From sequence record OQ031495: a DNA stretch of 64,000 bases; one strand, written 5' to 3'. Numbering within the stretch: position 1 is the first letter of the stretch; each line of letters opens with the position of its first letter. The notes under the pieces are model-generated. The model did not search any database. It was not told the DNA's origin and saw nothing but the letters and a program-made list of their open reading frames with translations. The DNA comes from Escherichia phage MRostami-2023e. Both the position numbers and the translations under genes were made by a program. Below are positions 5,631-61,881 of this stretch, one piece after another.

Positions 5631-6956
5631 ATGCAATTGAATTCTCGTAATCTAAAAAGTATTATTGATAACGAAGCCTTAGCATATGCGATGTACACCG
5701 TTGAAAACCGTGCAATCCCAAACATGATTGATGGATTTAAGCCGGTTCAACGTTTTGTGGTTCATCGTGCGTTAGATTTGGCTCGTGGTAATAAAGAAAA
5801 ATTTCATAAACTTGCGTCAATTGCAGGTGGTGTTGCAGATTTAGGTTATCACCATGGTGAATCTTCTGCACAAGATGCAGGTGCATTGATGGCTAACACG
5901 TGGAACAACAACTATCCACTGTTAGATGGCCAAGGCAACTTTGGTTCTAGAACAGTCCAAAAAGCTGCAGCATCTCGTTATATTTTTGCTCGTGTAAGTA
6001 AAAATTTCTATAACGTATATAAAGATACTGAATATGCTCCAGCTCATGAAGATAAAGAACACATTCCACCAAAATTCTATCTTCCTATTATTCCGACAGT
6101 TCTTTTGAATGGTGTTTCTGGTATTGCAACCGGTTACGCAACAAATATTCTGCCTCATAGTTTTAAATCGGTAAAAAAGGCCGTATTACAAGCTCTTCAA
6201 GGTAAAAATGTCACTAAGCCAAAAGTTGAATTCCCGGAATTCCGTGGTGAAGTACATGAAGTTGATGGGCGTTATGAGATTCACGGAACATATAAGTTCA
6301 CATCTCGCACTCAAATGCAGATAACTGAAATCCCATATAAATTCGACCGTGAAACGTATGTGAGTAAGGTTCTTGACCCGTTGGAAGACAAAGGTCTAAT
6401 CTCTTGGGAAGATGATTGTGGTGAACACGGCTTTGGGTTTAAGGTGAAGTTCCGTAAAGAGTACTCGCTTCCTGATGATGAAGAGCTACGTCATGAAAAA
6501 ATCATGAAAGATTTTAGTCTCATCGAACGTCGTTCACAAAACATCACAGTGATTAATGAAAAGGGTAAATTAGCTGTCTACGATAACGTAGTGGACTTAA
6601 TCAAAGATTTTGTTGAAGTCCGTAAGACTTACGTTCAGAAACGTATTGACAACAAAATCCTTGAATCTGAAAAAGCATTTAAACTGGCTTTTGCTAAGGC
6701 ACACTTCATCAAAAAAGTTATTACAGGTGAAATTGTGATTCAGGGCAAGACTCGTAAAGCTTTGACTGAAGAGCTAGCACAAATCGAAATGTATAAAGAA
6801 CATGTCGATAAACTGGTAGGTCTTAACATCTTCCATATCACTTCCGACGAAGCACGTAAACTAGCAGAAGAAGCTAAAGCTAAGAAAGAAGAAAATGAGT
6901 ATTGGAAGTCTACTGATGTTGTGACCGAGTACACTAAAGACTTGGAGGCACTTTGA
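5631..6956 (+). CDS. 52: DNA topoisomerase II medium subunit gp52
   Basis: 441 aa; AYAMYTVENRAIPNMIDGFKPVQRF (GyrA-type N-terminal domain); matches T4 gp52 in length and position. Confidence 0.95.
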   Translation: MQLNSRNLKSIIDNEALAYAMYTVENRAIPNMIDGFKPVQRFVVHRALDLARGNKEKFHKLASIAGGVADLGYHHGESSAQDAGALMANTWNNNYPLLDGQGNFGSRTVQKAAASRYIFARVSKNFYNVYKDTEYAPAHEDKEHIPPKFYLPIIPTVLLNGVSGIATGYATNILPHSFKSVKKAVLQALQGKNVTKPKVEFPEFRGEVHEVDGRYEIHGTYKFTSRTQMQITEIPYKFDRETYVSKVLDPLEDKGLISWEDDCGEHGFGFKVKFRKEYSLPDDEELRHEKIMKDFSLIERRSQNITVINEKGKLAVYDNVVDLIKDFVEVRKTYVQKRIDNKILESEKAFKLAFAKAHFIKKVITGEIVIQGKTRKALTEELAQIEMYKEHVDKLVGLNIFHITSDEARKLAEEAKAKKEENEYWKSTDVVTEYTKDLEAL

Positions 6957-7033
6957 GTGCCCTAGCCTTAGGATTTCTCGGTGCAATAGCTGTACTAGTG
7001 ATTTGGCTGTATTGGTTGGACAAACATGATTAG
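6953..7033 (+). CDS. possible 26-aa hydrophobic peptide with TTG start
   Basis: GGAGG RBS 6944-6948 then TTG; LSALALGFLGAIAVLVIWLYWLDKHD; overlaps the gene 52 stop; speculative. Confidence 0.25.
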   Translation: MSALALGFLGAIAVLVIWLYWLDKHD

Positions 7034-7054
7034 GGAGCTTCGGCTCCCTTTTGT
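7033..7054 (+). terminator. intrinsic terminator, GGGAGC-UUCG-GCUCCC plus T tract
   Basis: gggagcttcggctcccttttgtg after gene 52. Confidence 0.7.
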
Positions 7055-7074
7055 GCATTTTTCTCACAAAACAG

Positions 7075-7105
7075 TTTACTTTTGCTTCAAACATGATAGT
7101 ATAGA
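7075..7105 (+). promoter_or_regulatory. early promoter with embedded MotA-box-like TGCTTCA (possible early/middle hybrid)
   Basis: gtttac 7075-7080; tgcttca 7083-7089; -10 region gatagtataga. Confidence 0.55.
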
Positions 7106-7141
7106 CCTATCAAAACAAAACAACCAAATTGGAGAAATAAA

Positions 7142-7357
7142 ATGTCTAAAATGAAATTAACCCAAAACACAACTACTCGTTTCGGTAAAGTTAAACCTGG
7201 TATGAATGCTCCACGTAAAGCACTTGTTGAAGAATTAAATTTCTTAGAAGTTGAAATCAATTCTTTAGTGGTTCGCGGTTCAAATGGACATCATTTAGAA
7301 AAGCTTCGTTCTAAAAAGGCAAAACTTATTAGCCTTATTAAAGAAATGAGTTTGTAA
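7142..7357 (+). CDS. hypothetical basic early protein
   Basis: 71-aa ORF, GGAGAAATAAAATG RBS/start; MSKMKLTQ.. Confidence 0.55.
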   Translation: MSKMKLTQNTTTRFGKVKPGMNAPRKALVEELNFLEVEINSLVVRGSNGHHLEKLRSKKAKLISLIKEMSL

Positions 7358-7394
7358 ATTTTACCAGGGCTTTTGAAAAAGAGCCCAAAATAAA

Positions 7395-7426
7395 GTTTAC
7401 TTTTGCTTCAAACATGATATTATAGA
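7395..7426 (+). promoter_or_regulatory. early promoter with MotA-box-like TGCTTCA; near-identical copy of the 7075 cassette
   Basis: gtttacttttgcttcaaacatgatattatagacctatcaaaacaaa. Confidence 0.55.
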
Positions 7427-7460
7427 CCTATCAAAACAAATACTAATTTGGAGAAATAAA

Positions 7461-8093
7461 ATGTCTAAAGTTACTTACATCATCAAAGCTTCTGAAAACG
7501 CTCTGAATGAAAAAACTGCTGCAATAATGGTTTATATCATTAAGAACAACTTCACCACTGCTGCCAATGTCCGTGAAGCTCTGGAAGCAGAATACAATGC
7601 ATCGGTTGTTAACTCTAACATTGGTGTATTGATTAAGAAAGGTTTAGTCGAAAAATCCGGTGATGGACTTGTAGCAACAGGCGAAGCAATGGATATTATC
7701 CAAAAAGCTGCAGACCTCTTTGCCCAAGAAAATGCTCCAGAACTTCTTCAGAAACGTAACACTAGAAAAGCACGTGGAGTTACTCCTGAAATGCATGAAT
7801 TAGCAAACTTTGTTTTTGAAAATATTAAAGATAAAGTTGAAGTTAAAGAAATTGGTGAAAACCGTAGTAACTTGGAAGTTCGATTTGCAAAACGAGTTCT
7901 AGGTATTCGTCAGATCGAAATTCGTCGAGATGGTTCTCTTAGAATCTTTGCATACAACATGTCAGAAACTGAATCAAAGCTGTTTACTTCTCTTGAAAAT
8001 GATGTTAAGATTAAGATCGGTGGTAAATATACTTACATTGACTTCCCTAATGTGTCCAAAGAAATCATTACCCTTGTAACTAACGTACTGTGA
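7461..8093 (+). CDS. motA: MotA, activator of middle-mode transcription
   Basis: 210 aa; MSKVTYIIKAS..NSNIGVLIKKGLVEKSGDGL..ENAPELL matches T4 MotA (211 aa). Confidence 0.9.
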   Translation: MSKVTYIIKASENALNEKTAAIMVYIIKNNFTTAANVREALEAEYNASVVNSNIGVLIKKGLVEKSGDGLVATGEAMDIIQKAADLFAQENAPELLQKRNTRKARGVTPEMHELANFVFENIKDKVEVKEIGENRSNLEVRFAKRVLGIRQIEIRRDGSLRIFAYNMSETESKLFTSLENDVKIKIGGKYTYIDFPNVSKEIITLVTNVL

Positions 8094-8103
8094 GGAATAC
8101 ATA

Positions 8104-8448
8104 ATGAATAAGCTGAATATTATTAACGAACTTCGTAAATGTGCAGAACCTACTCAAGAAGGATGGGATATTTGGTACCACGGGGCTTATTTAGGGACAA
8201 TTGTAAAGATTAAAGCAGGCCAATATACGGTTATTCGTGAAAATNNNNNNNNNNNNNNNNNNNNNNNNNNNNNNNNNNNNCGTAAAAACTACATGGCAGC
8301 GATCAGTTCATTTGTTGATGCAGCTTACGAAATCTATAAAGAAGATTATAAAGAATATCAGCAGTCACAACCGGTTATTCGTTCGATTGGTGTAAATAAA
8401 CAAGCACAAAAATCTATTTGGCAACGTATTAAAGGATGGTTTAAATGA
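8104..8448 (+). CDS. hypothetical protein
   Basis: 114-aa ORF containing a 36-nt N block; ATGA overlap with the next ORF. Confidence 0.5.
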
Positions 8449-11490: not shown

Positions 11491-14400
11491 TTATGCTAAA
11501 CGAACGATATAGTTAAAAGCAACGTTTTTAACTGTGTTTTCTGTATTACCTGTACTATTTACAGTTATTGTATGTCCATGGGAACCAATTGCAACAGTAT
11601 GAGAATGAGCACCAATACCAACAGTATGAGAATGAGCACCAATACCAACAGTATGAGCATGGTTACCAGTAGCGCTAGTAGTTCCTGACCAACTATGAGT
11701 GTGGGCACCATCTGAAGAAGTTTTGGCCATATTCGACGATGCAGTAGCACCGCTCACGGTTGCAGTGAATTTAGCGTTGCCGTTTGGACCCGCACTATTG
11801 TATCCATCATAGAATATGCTAGTGGGTATGCCGCCTTGTACCTGAGGACCTGAACGCGCGTGTTGGTGCGCACCAGCGGAACTAGTATTACCACTCACTG
11901 TATGGTTATGGTTGCCAGTGGTATTACTGGTCTTAGTACCATAATCAAAGCTTGAAGTCGTTTTGCTACCGTAATCAAAACTAGAAGTGGTCTTAGTACC
12001 CAAATCTGTGTTTGATGCACTTGCACTATGGCTATGTGACTTAACACCGTCTGCTTCTGTACTTAATACAGCACGCCCAGATGGTTTACCCTTAATAGTT
12101 TGCCCACGCATATCAGGAATAGTACCTGTAGGATATGCGATAGCAAGCTTAGGATAAGCTGCGGTATCAAAGGTCTGACCTTCCATTAAAGCAAATCCAG
12201 CAGGAATTGAATCGCTTGGCCATGGAATNNNNNNNNNNNNNNNNNNNNNNNNNNNNNNNNNNNNNNNNNNNNNATTTAATGTGGTATTCAGGTTAGCAAA
12301 GTTTCCTGAACCGCCCGTGATATTACCATCAGTGCCAANNNNNNNNNNNNNNNNNNNNNNNNNNNNNNNNNNNNNNNNNNNNNNNNNNNNNNNNNNNNNN
12401 NNNNNNNNNNNNNNNNNNNNNNNNNNNNNNNNNNNNNNNNNNNNNNNNNNNNNNNNNNNNNNNNNNNNNNNNNNNNNNNNNNNNNNNNNNNNNNNNNNNN
12501 NNNNNNNNNNNNNNNNNNNNNNNNNNNNNNNNNNNNNNNNNNNNNNNNNNNNNNNNNNNNNNNNNNNNNNNNNNNNNNNNNNNNNNNNNNNNNNNNNNNN
12601 NNNNNNNNNNNNNNNNNNNNNNNNNNNNNNNNNNNNNNNNNNNNNNNNNNNNNNNNNNNNNNNNNNNNNNNNNNNTTGTCCTAATTGCATTCTGAAATTA
12701 GGAGCAATACGACTATGACTTGCTAATACAACACGCTTACTGTCATTGTCCACAGTAATCATATTACCGCCAGCGCCATCATCTCCTAACGTAACAGAAT
12801 GGCGCATTTGTACCATACCATTATNNNNNNNNNNNNNNNNNNNNNNNNNNNNNNNNNNNNNNNNNNNNNNNNNNNNNTCTTTAGGAGTCGGGATAATATG
12901 TAATGCTGTTTCTGAACGACGGAAAATAGCACCGTATTCGGCGTTCCAAATTCTCAATGCATTTGCTGTTCCGCCAAATTTAGCTTGTCCATTTACAGAC
13001 AATCCATTATTTGCAACTAAGCTTGATTCGGTTGTAATAGAACCNNNNNNNNNNNNNNNNNNNNNNNNNNNNNNNNNNNNNNNNNNNNNNNNNNNNNNNN
13101 NNNNNNNNNNNNNNNNNNNNNNNNNNNNNNNNNNNNNNNNNNNNNNNNNNNNNNNNNNNNNNNNNNNNNNNNNNNNNNNNNNNNNNNNNNNNNNNNNNNN
13201 NNNNNNNAATGAGTTACCCCATGCCTTAATAATCACATAGTTTTTATTCTGTCCTTCGCGAGTACCACCGTTCCATTGGATAGCTCTTGTTTCATCAACT
13301 TTGCTAGGGGCGCCAAATTTAAGGCCTGCAATATTATTAGAATTATTTAAAAATAATTCATTGTCTAATTTAACAGGTTGGATAGAAGAAATAGTGCCGT
13401 CAGCATAAAACTGTACGTTATTAGAACCAGTTACCAGTTTAAGAATACCTGGGTTAATTTCCATACCTTCCTGTGTATTAATGTTGGTTTGGCCTTTACC
13501 ACGGAAATAATGGGAAAATTTACCGCCAGAATTATATCCAATGTGGGTTTGACCATCACCTGCATTGTTTGTATCAGCCTGGGTTTGAACCGATAAAAGT
13601 GCGGCGTTGGTTCCAGGCATTGTCCAGGTTCCGCCTTGGTCTTCTGAGCGTCCAAATAATGCTTTACGAGTACTACGGAAACTATCAGGAGTAATAGAAG
13701 CAACAGAATTCCAATTACCTACTAAATCATAAACACCCTGCTTAATGTATTTTAAACCAGTGGCAGCATCACCTAAAGCAATATATCTTTCTCCCATTGG
13801 AGTAGGAGAACCATAGTTGTTAGTATTTTCATCAGTGGTAATTGTGCCAATAGCAAGTGAACGACGTAATACCATTGCGCCATCATTACGAAGACCCATT
13901 AATTTAGTAGTAAGTGTATTTCCGGTCCACCAAGAAATTTCATCATTCTTACCAGTTTGAGCTGAAGCGATTTCATGGTAAATAGTTCCGCCTGATTTAG
14001 CGCGAACTTTACGAAGATAGTTTACACCATTTTCTTCGCCTGTTCCAGGATAAACATATTGAACTAATGATTGCGAATCATATTGTCCGAATGCTTTTGT
14101 GTCCAAAACAATGGTTTTCGTATTAACTTGTGGAGCAGAAACTATACCATTGGCAGAGTTAATATTGCCTGATGCAGAAATATTACCTGCGCGGACCTCA
14201 ATACTACCAGAATCTACAATAAAATTACCATTACGGTTAAAGACCCAGTGTTTAGAATTGTCTGGAGCTGTAGAATCAATATAATGAACTCTAAATGAGC
14301 CTTCGCTTACTAGTGTACCTACCGAAAAAGTACCGTCTTTATAACGTTGCTTAATCAAAGGGTGGTATTCTGAAACAGAAGTAGTTGAACTTAAATCTGT

Positions 14401-15439: not shown

Positions 15440-15446
15440 CAAAAAT

Positions 15447-15464
15447 GGGAGACCGAAGTCTCCC
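15447..15464 (-). terminator. GGGAGAC-UUCG-GUCUCCC hairpin after gene 35
   Basis: gggagaccgaagtctccc; minus strand reads hairpin then AUUUUUG. Confidence 0.6.
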
Positions 15465-15469
15465 TAAAT

Positions 15470-23791: not shown

Positions 23792-23817
23792 AGTATCTGT
23801 AAATTGCCGAAAAAGTT

Positions 23818-61829: not shown

Positions 61830-61839
61830 AACCAAAAAT

Positions 61840-61857
61840 GGGAGACCGAAGTCTCCC
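61840..61857 (-). terminator. GGGAGAC-UUCG-GUCUCCC terminator after gene 23
   Basis: minus strand reads gggagacttcggtctccc then atttttgg. Confidence 0.7.
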
Positions 61858-61881
61858 AAAATAAGATTTAATCAATTAAGA

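What the first reader, a model, noticed from the sequence alone, without database searches (positions are those of the whole stretch)
7065..7465. Near-identical ~80-bp promoter/RBS/start cassette duplicated 321 bp apart
The sequence agtttacttttgcttcaaacatgata(g/t)tatagacctatcaaaacaaa...ttggagaaataaaatgtctaaa occurs at 7073-7150 and again at 7393-7470, the second copy driving motA. Both downstream proteins start MSK. Each copy contains both a GTTTAC early -35 and a MotA-box-like TGCTTCA. Duplicated regulatory cassettes of this kind could arise from, or promote, recombination that inserted the 71-aa ORF at 7142-7357.
Basis: seen in the sequence. Interest (0 to 1): 0.5.

Follow-up and report, generated by a model that had tools for sequence, protein, structure and literature searches.

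The report
Duplicated early-promoter cassettes flanking a swappable gene
In this RB69-like T4-type phage, the promoter and ribosome-site cassette of the transcription activator gene motA is present twice, bracketing a small accessory gene that about half of the closest relatives lack, which is a clear but ordinary example of the known "PeSL" way these phages gain and lose genes.

Summary
Two about 85-nt blocks (7065-7150 and 7386-7469) are 88% identical. The other early promoters in the window average 60% to each other, and the best other pair reaches 74%. The window is a Mosigvirus, 100% identical to phage vB_EQ1.

Each block has the same parts: a stable stem-loop, an A/T-rich stretch, a T4-type early promoter (GTTTAC, 17 nt, TGn-TAKTAT), an unstructured leader of about 33 nt, a GGAG ribosome site, and ATG-TCT-AAA. 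Copy 1 drives a conserved 71-aa gene of unknown function (dN/dS about 0.2). Copy 2 drives motA.

- About 75 of about 155 close relatives carry both copies plus the gene. The rest lack exactly one unit of about 320 bp.
- The deletions have two junction types: a crossover in the promoter block (RB69 only) or in the ribosome-site/start block (all others seen).
- Gene conversion between the copies is visible.
- Other genera hold unrelated small genes in the same slot, again between motA-type cassettes.

This matches the published PeSL (promoter-early stem-loop) modular-shuffling model, so it is a new member of a known kind.

The "MotA box" is a perfect consensus match, but it lies 7 nt from the -10 instead of 11-13 nt. 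It therefore does not make a middle promoter. Its conservation across genera is unexplained.

The parts
7032..7052 (+). Stem-loop 1: AGGGAGC-UUCG-GCUCCCU followed by UUUU. It is the terminator-like hairpin after gene 52 and the small ORF 6953-7033, and it forms the stem-loop part of cassette 1.
   Evidence: RNA fold gives -12.9 kcal/mol, z -3.1. The matching hairpin is annotated as a terminator in phage MM02. T4 and JS98 have a positional equivalent.
7065..7150 (+). Repeat copy 1: A/T-rich lead-in, early promoter, leader, ribosome site and the first three codons.
7074..7079 (+). -35-region hexamer GTTTAC of copy 1 (T4 early-promoter signature).
   Evidence: Read directly from the sequence. GTTTAC lies at -36 to -31 in T4-type early promoters (PMC1524935).
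7080..7089 (+). TTTTGCTTCA: a perfect match to the MotA-box consensus WWWTGCTTYA, lying in the promoter spacer of copy 1.
   Evidence: It is 7 nt from the -10, not 11-13 nt. TGCTT occurs in the spacer of only these two of the GTTTAC early-promoter candidates in the window. A GCTTYAAA core is conserved in motA-type cassettes of several genera.
7094..7102 (+). TGn extended -10 plus the -10 hexamer TAGTAT of copy 1. The inferred transcription start is near 7109.
   Evidence: Sequence, with a 17-nt spacer after GTTTAC. The start site is inferred, not mapped.
7131..7141 (+). GGAGAAAUAAA: the Shine-Dalgarno GGAG and a candidate RegB/S1 cleavage site for copy 1, 7 nt before the ATG.
   Evidence: It matches GGAGRAYARAA at 9 of 11 positions (PMC1702504). 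The leader is unstructured.
7142..7357 (+). 71-aa accessory gene (PHROG 6200, function unknown). This is the cargo between the two cassettes.
   Evidence: dN/dS is 0.21-0.25 against JS98 and VR5. The model shows a disordered basic N-terminus followed by a helical hairpin. No fold match or remote sequence homologue was found.
7367..7386 (+). Stem-loop 2: GGGCUUUU-GAAA-AAGAGCCC, followed by AAAAUAAA with no U-run. It forms the stem-loop part of cassette 2.
   Evidence: -12.3 kcal/mol, z -4.1. The pair G-C here is A-U in JS98 and G-U in VR5. Analogous hairpins precede motA in CGG4-1 and Merlin.
7386..7469 (+). Repeat copy 2: A/T-rich lead-in, early promoter, leader, ribosome site and the first three codons of motA.
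7395..7400 (+). -35-region hexamer GTTTAC of copy 2.
7401..7410 (+). TTTTGCTTCA: MotA-box consensus match in the spacer of copy 2.
7415..7423 (+). TGn plus the -10 hexamer TATTAT of copy 2. The inferred transcription start is near 7430.
7450..7460 (+). GGAGAAAUAAA: the Shine-Dalgarno GGAG and candidate RegB site of motA.
   Evidence: Sequence. T4 motA mRNA is cut by RegB in its Shine-Dalgarno sequence (PMC2988021, PMC1702504). A 39-nt stretch spanning the ribosome site and the first codons of motA (AATTGGAG...ATCATC) is 100% identical in Klebsiella phage PhiKpNIH-6.
7461..8093 (+). motA, the activator of middle transcription.
   Evidence: Pfam MotA_activ and MotCF; PHROG 1345.

Best explanation
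The two blocks are tandem copies of the ancestral motA expression cassette. Each consists of a stem-loop, an A/T-rich stretch, a T4-type early sigma-70 promoter, a short unstructured leader, a GGAG ribosome site and a start codon. They bracket a small accessory gene. This is the arrangement published as PeSLs (promoter-early stem-loops).

The proposed mechanism has two parts.

(1) Expression. Host RNA polymerase starts at both promoters immediately after infection. The 71-aa gene therefore gets the same early timing and the same GGAG leader as motA. Stem-loop 2 has no U-run, so transcripts from copy 1 probably read on into motA.

(2) Evolution. The 46-nt and 22-nt identical blocks are substrates for the phage's homologous recombination system.
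- A crossover between the copies removes one unit of about 320 bp (cargo plus one cassette). In the published model this unit can leave as a mini-circle, and the reverse reaction inserts cargo.
- Non-reciprocal exchange (gene conversion) keeps the copies alike.

Shown here: the repeat, its anatomy, the presence/absence polymorphism, two junction classes, conversion tracts, purifying selection on the cargo gene, and unrelated cargo in the same slot in other genera.

Inferred only: promoter activity and start sites, read-through of stem-loop 2, RegB cleavage, and mini-circle formation.
For: - Repeat beyond consensus.
- Anatomy: hairpins of -12.9 and -12.3 kcal/mol lie just upstream of each promoter. 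Each promoter is GTTTAC-N17-TGnTAKTAT. Both copies carry GGAG, 7 nt, then ATG.
- Identity of the window: it is a Mosigvirus, 100% identical to vB_EQ1, and copy 2 precedes motA.
- Polymorphism: 75 of about 155 records with at least 90% identical flanks cover the whole region. The others match over about 680 bp, that is minus about 320 bp. The ORF is found in 76 Mosigvirus-like and 17 Dhakavirus records, against 153 records with MotA at 95% identity or more.
- Junction types: RB69 has the copy-1 upstream flank joined to the copy-2 leader, and this type is unique to RB69. phiE142, mar005P1, O157tp3, p000v, HY126 and L007 have the copy-1 promoter and leader fused to motA, and this junction is common.
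- Repeated events: the single cassettes carry three different copy-1 haplotypes (TTT+TAGTAT, ATG, ACG). Each haplotype is also found as copy 1 in a two-cassette genome. mar005P1 equals copy 1 of APCEc01, a phage of the same species.
- Gene conversion: both copies share TTC in JS98, TTA in VR5 and TTT in the window. In UGJNEcP2, copy 2 carries the copy-1 leader.
- Age of the arrangement: dS is 1.1 for the ORF and 0.9 for motA between genera, with dN/dS about 0.2.
- Same slot, other cargo: unrelated PHROGs 10955, 13302, 18576 and 10840 occupy it elsewhere. CGG4-1 has its own duplicated motA-type cassettes.
- Published model: the PeSL definition, and crossovers mapped between the -10, the Shine-Dalgarno sequence and the ATG, are in PMC2839356 and PMC4122927.
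Against: - No transcript data exist for this phage, so promoter use and start sites rest on similarity to T4 early promoters.
- Stem-loop 2 lacks a U-run, so it is not a canonical intrinsic terminator. The published PeSL stem-loops of RB49 were described as effective terminators.
- The motA-type cassette is under strong purifying selection across genera (43/46 identical to PhiKpNIH-6, whose MotA is only 65% identical). Part of the similarity between the two copies therefore needs no gene conversion.
- In 6 of the 11 two-cassette genomes examined, the spacer triplets of the two copies differ (for example HX01, ATG vs TTT). Homogenisation is incomplete.
- The direction of each event, deletion or insertion, cannot be proved from sequence alone.
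Confidence: 0.8

Rival explanations
1. The similarity is only the shared consensus of strong T4-type early promoters. There was no duplication and no exchange between the two sites.
For: T4-type early promoters share extended consensus regions (PMC2988021). Other promoters in the window, at 23809 and 39257, are 71-76% identical to copy 1 over 55 nt.
Against: The pair is a clear outlier: 88% against a mean of 60% (sd 4.4), with a next-best pair at 74%. The non-consensus spacer is 13/13 identical. The identity continues through the leader, ribosome site and three codons. The pair-specific 32-mer occurs nowhere else in the window.
Confidence: 0.03
2. The copies stay alike only because each is independently held by selection to the same optimal motA-type promoter sequence, possibly including an operator. 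Recombination between them plays no real role.
For: The cassette is conserved across genera far more than the coding sequence. It is 43/46 identical to PhiKpNIH-6, whose MotA is 65% identical, and about the same to JS98, whose MotA is 70% identical. In several genomes the spacer triplet of copy 1 differs from that of copy 2.
Against: Variable positions change together in both copies of a genome: TTC/TTC in JS98, TTA/TTA in VR5 and TTT/TTT in the window. In UGJNEcP2 the leader of copy 2 has been replaced by the copy-1 type. The single-cassette genomes are exact hybrids with two different junctions. Selection alone does not explain these patterns.
Confidence: 0.1
3. The cassettes are dual early/middle promoters. 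The TGCTTCA MotA box lets MotA/AsiA-modified polymerase keep transcribing the 71-aa gene and motA in the middle period.
For: TTTTGCTTCA matches the MotA-box consensus WWWTGCTTYA perfectly in both copies. MotA tolerates deviations within the box itself (PMC2988021).
Against: The box ends 7 nt before the -10 hexamer, whereas middle promoters need 11-13 nt (PMC1524935, PMC2988021). No TAnnnT lies 11-13 nt downstream of it. Six other boxes in the same window do have a -10 at 11-13 nt. T4 motA is an early gene whose mRNA is inactivated by RegB within minutes (PMC2988021).
Confidence: 0.05

Closest known systems
PeSL (promoter-early stem-loop) cassettes of T4-type phages: RB49/phi1 (Arbiol et al. 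2010, PMC2839356); PST/T4 and nt-1/KVP40 (Comeau et al. 2014, PMC4122927)
   Same: The composition is the same: a stem-loop just upstream, an A/T-rich region, a sigma-70-like early promoter (TTTACW...TAYWAT in the T-even group), a Shine-Dalgarno sequence and a start codon. Two copies flank a small ORF of unknown function. Close relatives differ by exactly one ORF plus one cassette, as with RB49 ORF192 against phi1. The crossovers fall within the cassette, between the -10, the Shine-Dalgarno sequence and the ATG.
   Different: The site is the promoter of an essential regulator, motA, next to gene 52. The copies belong to one conserved motA-type sub-family, and the -35/-10 spacing is 16 nt counted from TTTACT. 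Stem-loop 2 has a GAAA loop and no U-run, so its terminator function is doubtful. Mini-circles were not and could not be tested here. This locus is not mentioned in the passages of the two papers I read: a term search of Arbiol 2010 found no 'motA' or 'RB69', and the parts of Comeau 2014 that I read (parts 1-2 of 3) do not mention it.
T4 motA early promoter and RegB-sensitive motA leader
   Same: The gene order is the same: gene 52, a small hydrophobic ORF, a terminator hairpin, then ...CACAAAAC-GTTTAC promoter, GGAG and ATGTCTAAAGT. motA is an early gene whose Shine-Dalgarno GGAG is cut by RegB (PMC2988021, PMC1702504).
   Different: T4 has a single cassette, no 71-aa ORF, and a different spacer (AACCAAAGCATACTGTGG) with no TGCTTYA on the top strand. 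The leader here, GGAGAAAUAAA, matches the RegB consensus at 9 of 11 positions. Cleavage has not been tested in this phage.
T4-type middle (MotA-dependent) promoters
   Same: The cassette contains a perfect WWWTGCTTYA MotA-box sequence and a good -10 hexamer.
   Different: The box-to-(-10) spacing is 7 nt instead of 11-13 nt, and the box sits inside the spacer of a complete early promoter. This is not a member of the family.

Membership tests
PeSL (promoter-early stem-loop) cassette | A stem-loop lies just upstream of the cassette's own promoter. | tested here: met
   Hairpins at 7032-7049 (-12.9 kcal/mol) and 7367-7386 (-12.3 kcal/mol, z -4.1) end 24 and 8 nt before GTTTAC. The same is seen in JS98, VR5, MM02, CGG4-1 and Merlin.
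PeSL (promoter-early stem-loop) cassette | A sigma-70-like early promoter (T-even type TTTACW...TAYWAT) follows an A/T-rich region. | tested here: met
   Each copy reads TTTACT, 16 nt, then TAGTAT or TATTAT, with TGn, preceded by A/T-rich sequence. TAGTAT in copy 1 departs from TAYWAT at one position. Promoter activity was not measured.
PeSL (promoter-early stem-loop) cassette | A Shine-Dalgarno sequence and the start codon of the downstream gene lie at the 3' end. | tested here: met
   Copy 1 has GGAG at 7131-7134 and ATG at 7142. Copy 2 has GGAG at 7450-7453 and ATG at 7461.
PeSL (promoter-early stem-loop) cassette | Copies flank variable ORFs, and close relatives differ by one ORF plus one cassette. 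| tested here: met
   About half of the Mosigvirus records lack about 320 bp, and they show two hybrid junction types.
PeSL (promoter-early stem-loop) cassette | The stem-loop acts as an effective transcription terminator. | tested here: inconclusive
   Stem-loop 1 is followed by UUUU and is annotated as a terminator in MM02. Stem-loop 2 is followed by AAAAUAAA and is not terminator-like.
PeSL (promoter-early stem-loop) cassette | Recombination between neighbouring copies forms mini-circles. | not testable with these tools
   This needs inverse PCR on infected cells or lysates, as in PMC2839356.
T4-type middle promoter | A MotA box WWWTGCTTtA lies 11-13 bp upstream of a TAtaaT -10 and replaces the -35. 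| tested here: not met
   The box is present, but the spacing is 7 nt and a full GTTTAC -35 region is retained. No alternative -10 lies at 11-13 nt (consensus from PMC1524935).
RegB/S1 cleavage site | An 11-nt single-stranded site GGAGRAYARAA in an early mRNA leader. | tested here: inconclusive
   GGAGAAAUAAA matches at 9 of 11 positions in both copies, and the leaders are unstructured (consensus from PMC1702504). Cleavage was not tested, and I did not look for a regB gene in the window.
MotA (activator of middle transcription), the gene after copy 2 | An N-terminal activation domain and a C-terminal DNA-binding domain. | tested here: met
   Pfam PF09114 at 2.4e-39 and PF09158 at 2.1e-08.

The most novel reading that the evidence does not exclude
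The perfect MotA box in the spacer of the motA-type early promoter (7080-7089 and 7401-7410) may be an operator through which MotA shuts off its own promoter. It is misplaced by 6 bp for activation. A GCTTYAAA core is conserved in motA-type cassettes of Mosigvirus, Dhakavirus, Marfavirus, Kanagawavirus, Moonvirus, Gelderlandvirus and an unclassified Klebsiella phage (the T of TGCTT is C in the Moonvirus and one Gelderlandvirus copy). T4 has an inverted TGCTTT in the same spacer. By copying this cassette, the phage would place any cargo gene inserted in the slot, here the 71-aa protein, under the same brief MotA-limited and RegB-limited burst of expression as motA.
Probability: 0.15. Interest if true: 0.55.

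Novelty: new member of a known kind. Interest (0 to 1): 0.35.

Why it matters
This locus gives a clean, well-sampled natural example of promoter-cassette-mediated gene gain and loss in T4-type phages. Roughly 150 near-identical genomes are split about evenly between the two forms. The crossovers can be placed in two short sub-blocks, gene conversion is visible, and unrelated cargo occupies the same slot in other genera. That makes the locus a convenient place to measure the rate and the genetic requirements of PeSL recombination. It also flags the 71-aa gene as a dispensable early accessory gene, co-expressed with motA, that is worth testing for a host-specific role. For annotation, it shows that the 42-aa CDS called across the terminator and promoter in vB_EQ1 is almost certainly not a gene. 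The mechanism itself is already published, so the result extends existing understanding rather than changing it.

Tried and rejected
- Searching IMG/VR with the MotA protein returned only 2 loci. I used the phage collection and a degenerate DNA pattern instead.
- Function of the 71-aa protein: no Pfam hit, and only PHROG 6200 of unknown function. A profile search of 1.8 billion representative proteins found no homologues outside the Mosigvirus/Dhakavirus family. Its two marginal hits are an RTX-repeat protein and a chemoreceptor, which I judged spurious. The AlphaFold model (pLDDT 76) is a generic helical hairpin with no PDB match at E <= 0.001.
- The middle-promoter reading was rejected on spacing.
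- A formal covariation count for stem-loop 2 across genera was abandoned, because MAFFT put the Gelderlandvirus and Moonvirus hairpins one column out of register. I report only the fold energies and the single compensatory pair between Mosigvirus and Dhakavirus.
- The RB69-type junction was searched for and found only in RB69. I therefore cannot say how often promoter-block crossovers occur.
- Literature searches for MotA autoregulation found nothing usable. One search failed on a term that was too short.
Full report
**The observation.** The repeat finder reports 7065-7119 against 7386-7440 (55 nt, 93%, spacing 321) and 7114-7150 against 7433-7469 (37 nt, 84%, spacing 319). The pairwise alignment shows a 46-nt core that differs only at the G/T inside the -10 hexamer. 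A diverged leader with a 2-nt indel follows, and then the identical block TTGGAGAAATAAAATGTCTAAA. The 32-mer covering the promoter occurs exactly twice in 64 kb, against 0 expected.

This pair is 88% identical over 86 nt. All other pairs average 60% (sd 4.4), and the best other pair reaches 74%. The non-consensus spacer is 13/13 identical, against a mean of 4.4 and a maximum of 9. The repeat is real and goes well beyond the promoter consensus.

**What the window is.** The region is 100% identical to Escherichia phage vB_EQ1 and 96-99% identical to many Mosigvirus (RB69-like, T4-type) phages. On the + strand the order is:
- ndd
- two small membrane ORFs
- gene 52 (topoisomerase II medium subunit, Pfam DNA_topoisoIV)
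- the 71-aa ORF
- motA (Pfam MotA_activ and MotCF)
- arn.4-like genes

**Anatomy of each cassette.**
- Copy 1 is preceded by a hairpin at 7032-7049 (AGGGAGC-UUCG-GCUCCCU, -12.9 kcal/mol) followed by UUUU.
- Copy 2 is preceded by a hairpin at 7367-7386 (GGGCUUUU-GAAA-AAGAGCCC, -12.3 kcal/mol, z -4.1) followed by AAAAUAAA.
- After each hairpin come an A/T-rich stretch, GTTTAC, a 17-nt spacer, TGn and TAGTAT or TATTAT.
- An unstructured leader of about 33 nt follows, then GGAG, 7 nt and ATG TCT AAA.
- GTTTAC at -36 to -31 is the T4-type early-promoter signature (PMC1524935). T4 early promoters combine UP, -35, TGn and -10 elements (PMC2988021).
- T4 has the same layout upstream of motA: a hairpin...CACAAAACGGTTTAC..., GGAG and ATGTCTAAAGT. 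Copy 1's upstream context is therefore the ancestral motA promoter context.

**The cargo gene.** The 71-aa ORF has homologues only in Mosigvirus (88-100% identical) and Dhakavirus (72-76%). Between the two genera its dN/dS is 0.21-0.25. Its dS (1.1) and dN (0.24) equal those of motA (0.9 and 0.24). It is therefore a real gene under purifying selection that has diverged in step with its neighbour. The AlphaFold model (pLDDT 76) shows a disordered basic N-terminus and a helical hairpin. No informative fold or family match was found, so its function remains unknown.

**Comparative evidence for recombination.**

*Presence or absence.* Of about 155 records with at least 90% identical flanks, 75 cover the whole region 6750-7750. 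The others match over about 680 bp, which is one unit of about 320 bp fewer. This agrees with 76 Mosigvirus-like ORF hits against 153 records with MotA at 95% identity or more. Both states occur within one species: APCEc01 and MM02 have two cassettes, while mar005P1 has one.

*Junction types.* RB69 joins the copy-1 upstream flank to the copy-2 leader, so its crossover lay in the promoter block. A dedicated search found this junction only in RB69. phiE142, mar005P1, O157tp3, p000v, HY126 and an IMG/VR contig keep the copy-1 promoter and leader fused directly to motA. Their crossover lay in the 22-nt ribosome-site/start block, and this junction is common.

*Repeated events.* The single cassettes carry three copy-1 haplotypes (spacer triplet TTT with TAGTAT, ATG, ACG). 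Each haplotype also occurs as copy 1 in a two-cassette genome. This suggests repeated events, or exchange between phages.

*Gene conversion.*
- Both copies read TTC in JS98, TTA in VR5 and TTT in the window.
- In UGJNEcP2, copy 2 carries the copy-1 leader.
- In Mosigvirus the first three codons and ribosome site of the ORF equal those of motA, whereas in Dhakavirus they do not (MNK...).
- A 39-nt stretch spanning the ribosome site and first codons of motA (AATTGGAG...ATCATC) is 100% identical in a Klebsiella phage. This suggests the motA initiation region was copied onto the ORF.
- Homogenisation is incomplete, for example ATG against TTT in HX01.

**The same slot in other phages.**
- T4 and one Dhakavirus-like contig have nothing in the slot.
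- Other contigs hold a 75-aa ORF, found in both T4-like and Dhakavirus-like contexts.
- Others hold a 73-aa ORF.
- Kanagawavirus IME523 holds a 217-aa ORF and a 51-aa ORF.
- Gelderlandvirus CGG4-1 holds an 88-aa ORF between its own pair of motA-type cassettes.

All of these ORFs except the 51-aa one, which matched no family, fall in different PHROGs of unknown function. Where cargo is present in Mosigvirus, Dhakavirus, Gelderlandvirus and Moonvirus, the motA-proximal cassette is preceded by a hairpin of 8-10 bp with no U-run. HY126 switches from Dhakavirus-type to Mosigvirus-type sequence at the terminator.

**Comparison with what is known.** Arbiol et al. 2010 and Comeau et al. 2014 define PeSLs as a stem-loop, an A/T-rich region, an early promoter, a Shine-Dalgarno sequence and a start codon. 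For the T-even group they give the promoter as TTTACW...TAYWAT. They show ORFs flanked by two PeSLs that are absent from close relatives, and mini-circles with crossovers between the -10, the Shine-Dalgarno sequence and the ATG. Every sequence-level criterion is met here. Terminator activity of stem-loop 2 is doubtful, and mini-circles cannot be tested with these tools. A term search of Arbiol 2010 found no 'motA' or 'RB69', and the parts of Comeau 2014 that I read do not mention this locus. I class the finding as a new member of a known kind.

**The MotA box.** TTTTGCTTCA matches WWWTGCTTYA perfectly in both copies, but it ends 7 nt before the -10. Middle promoters need 11-13 nt (PMC1524935, PMC2988021). 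Six other boxes in the window do have a -10 at 11-13 nt, so these two cassettes are not middle promoters. Even so, TGCTT occurs in the spacer of only these two of the GTTTAC promoter candidates in the window. A GCTTYAAA core is conserved in 11 of the 13 aligned cassettes (11 motA-type cassettes; the exceptions are T4 and the motA-proximal copy of IME523), from seven groups of phages. The cassette is 43/46 identical to that of PhiKpNIH-6, although MotA is only 65% identical. This is unexplained. An autoregulatory operator is a possible reading at low probability, and I found no literature on it.

**RegB.** T4 motA mRNA is cut by RegB inside its Shine-Dalgarno GGAG, which limits MotA synthesis to a short burst (PMC2988021). 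The RegB/S1 site is GGAGRAYARAA (PMC1702504). Both leaders here read GGAGAAAUAAA, a 9 of 11 match, and are unstructured. The 71-aa gene therefore plausibly shares motA's post-transcriptional control. This is inferred, not shown.

**Verdict.** The mechanism is already published, so the finding is of modest interest.

Noticed in passing
window 3994, 24281, 33137, 35263, 39266 (and others): Many early promoters carry an inverted repeat whose arms bracket the -10 hexamer, and the arm sequences covary. Examples are 39266 TTGGTACAGGT/ACCTGTACCAA (11 bp), 35263 TGGTAGAGTT/AACTCTACCA (10 bp) and 3994 TAGGACTA/TAGTCCTA (8 bp). The mean best arm is 5.9 nt, against 4.3 (sd 1.05) in random segments. Arms of 7 bp or more occur in 4 of 16 promoters, against 3.8% of controls. 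The meaning is unknown.
   Followed up: partly
window 6953-7033 (+): A 26-aa hydrophobic ORF (MSALALGFLGAIAVLVIWLYWLDKHD) with a TTG start overlaps the stop codon of gene 52, and a GGAGG lies just upstream. It is the positional counterpart of T4 motA.1 (49 aa) and of the 34-aa MSLGVEFLLL... peptide seen in Dhakavirus-like contigs. It is not annotated in vB_EQ1.
   Followed up: partly
window 7026-7154 (+): The vB_EQ1 record annotates a 42-aa CDS that spans the terminator hairpin, the promoter and the ribosome site of copy 1. It has no PHROG or Pfam hit and is almost certainly not a gene.
   Followed up: yes
window 8245-8281: A run of 37 N (masked sequence) lies inside the arn.4-like ORF 8104-8448.
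   Followed up: no
L028 (phage HY126) 300-520: This locus is a mosaic. A Dhakavirus-type small peptide and terminator (GGAACCTTCGGGTTCC) are joined at the T-run to a Mosigvirus-type A/T-rich region and a single motA cassette. That places a recombination junction at the stem-loop.
   Followed up: partly
L014 (IMG/VR 3300045988) and L013, L016: T4-like gp52 and MotA.1 are present in L013 and L014; L016 is too short to show them. In L014 a T4-type motA promoter drives a 75-aa ORF (PHROG 10955). In all three loci that ORF is followed by a hairpin and a Dhakavirus-type motA cassette. The same ORF sits in a Dhakavirus-like context in L018. This suggests cargo moves between genera through the cassette.
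   Followed up: partly
L031 (Salmonella phage CGG4-1) 264 and 633: A Gelderlandvirus has its own pair of motA-type cassettes around an unrelated 88-aa ORF (PHROG 18576), and a hairpin of -10.7 kcal/mol precedes the second copy.
   Followed up: partly
window 11570-11677 and 11928-12015: There are tandem repeats with periods of 27 nt and 30 nt. The reverse complement of the 27-nt unit reads ...GIGAHSH..., which resembles the His-box repeats of T-even distal tail-fibre proteins. That resemblance is from my own knowledge and was not tested.
   Followed up: no
window 15440-15469 and 61833-61862: Two 30-nt hairpin-containing stretches (CAAAAATGGGAGACCGAAGTCTCCC...) are 97% identical and lie 46 kb apart. 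They look like a shared terminator-type stem-loop.
   Followed up: no
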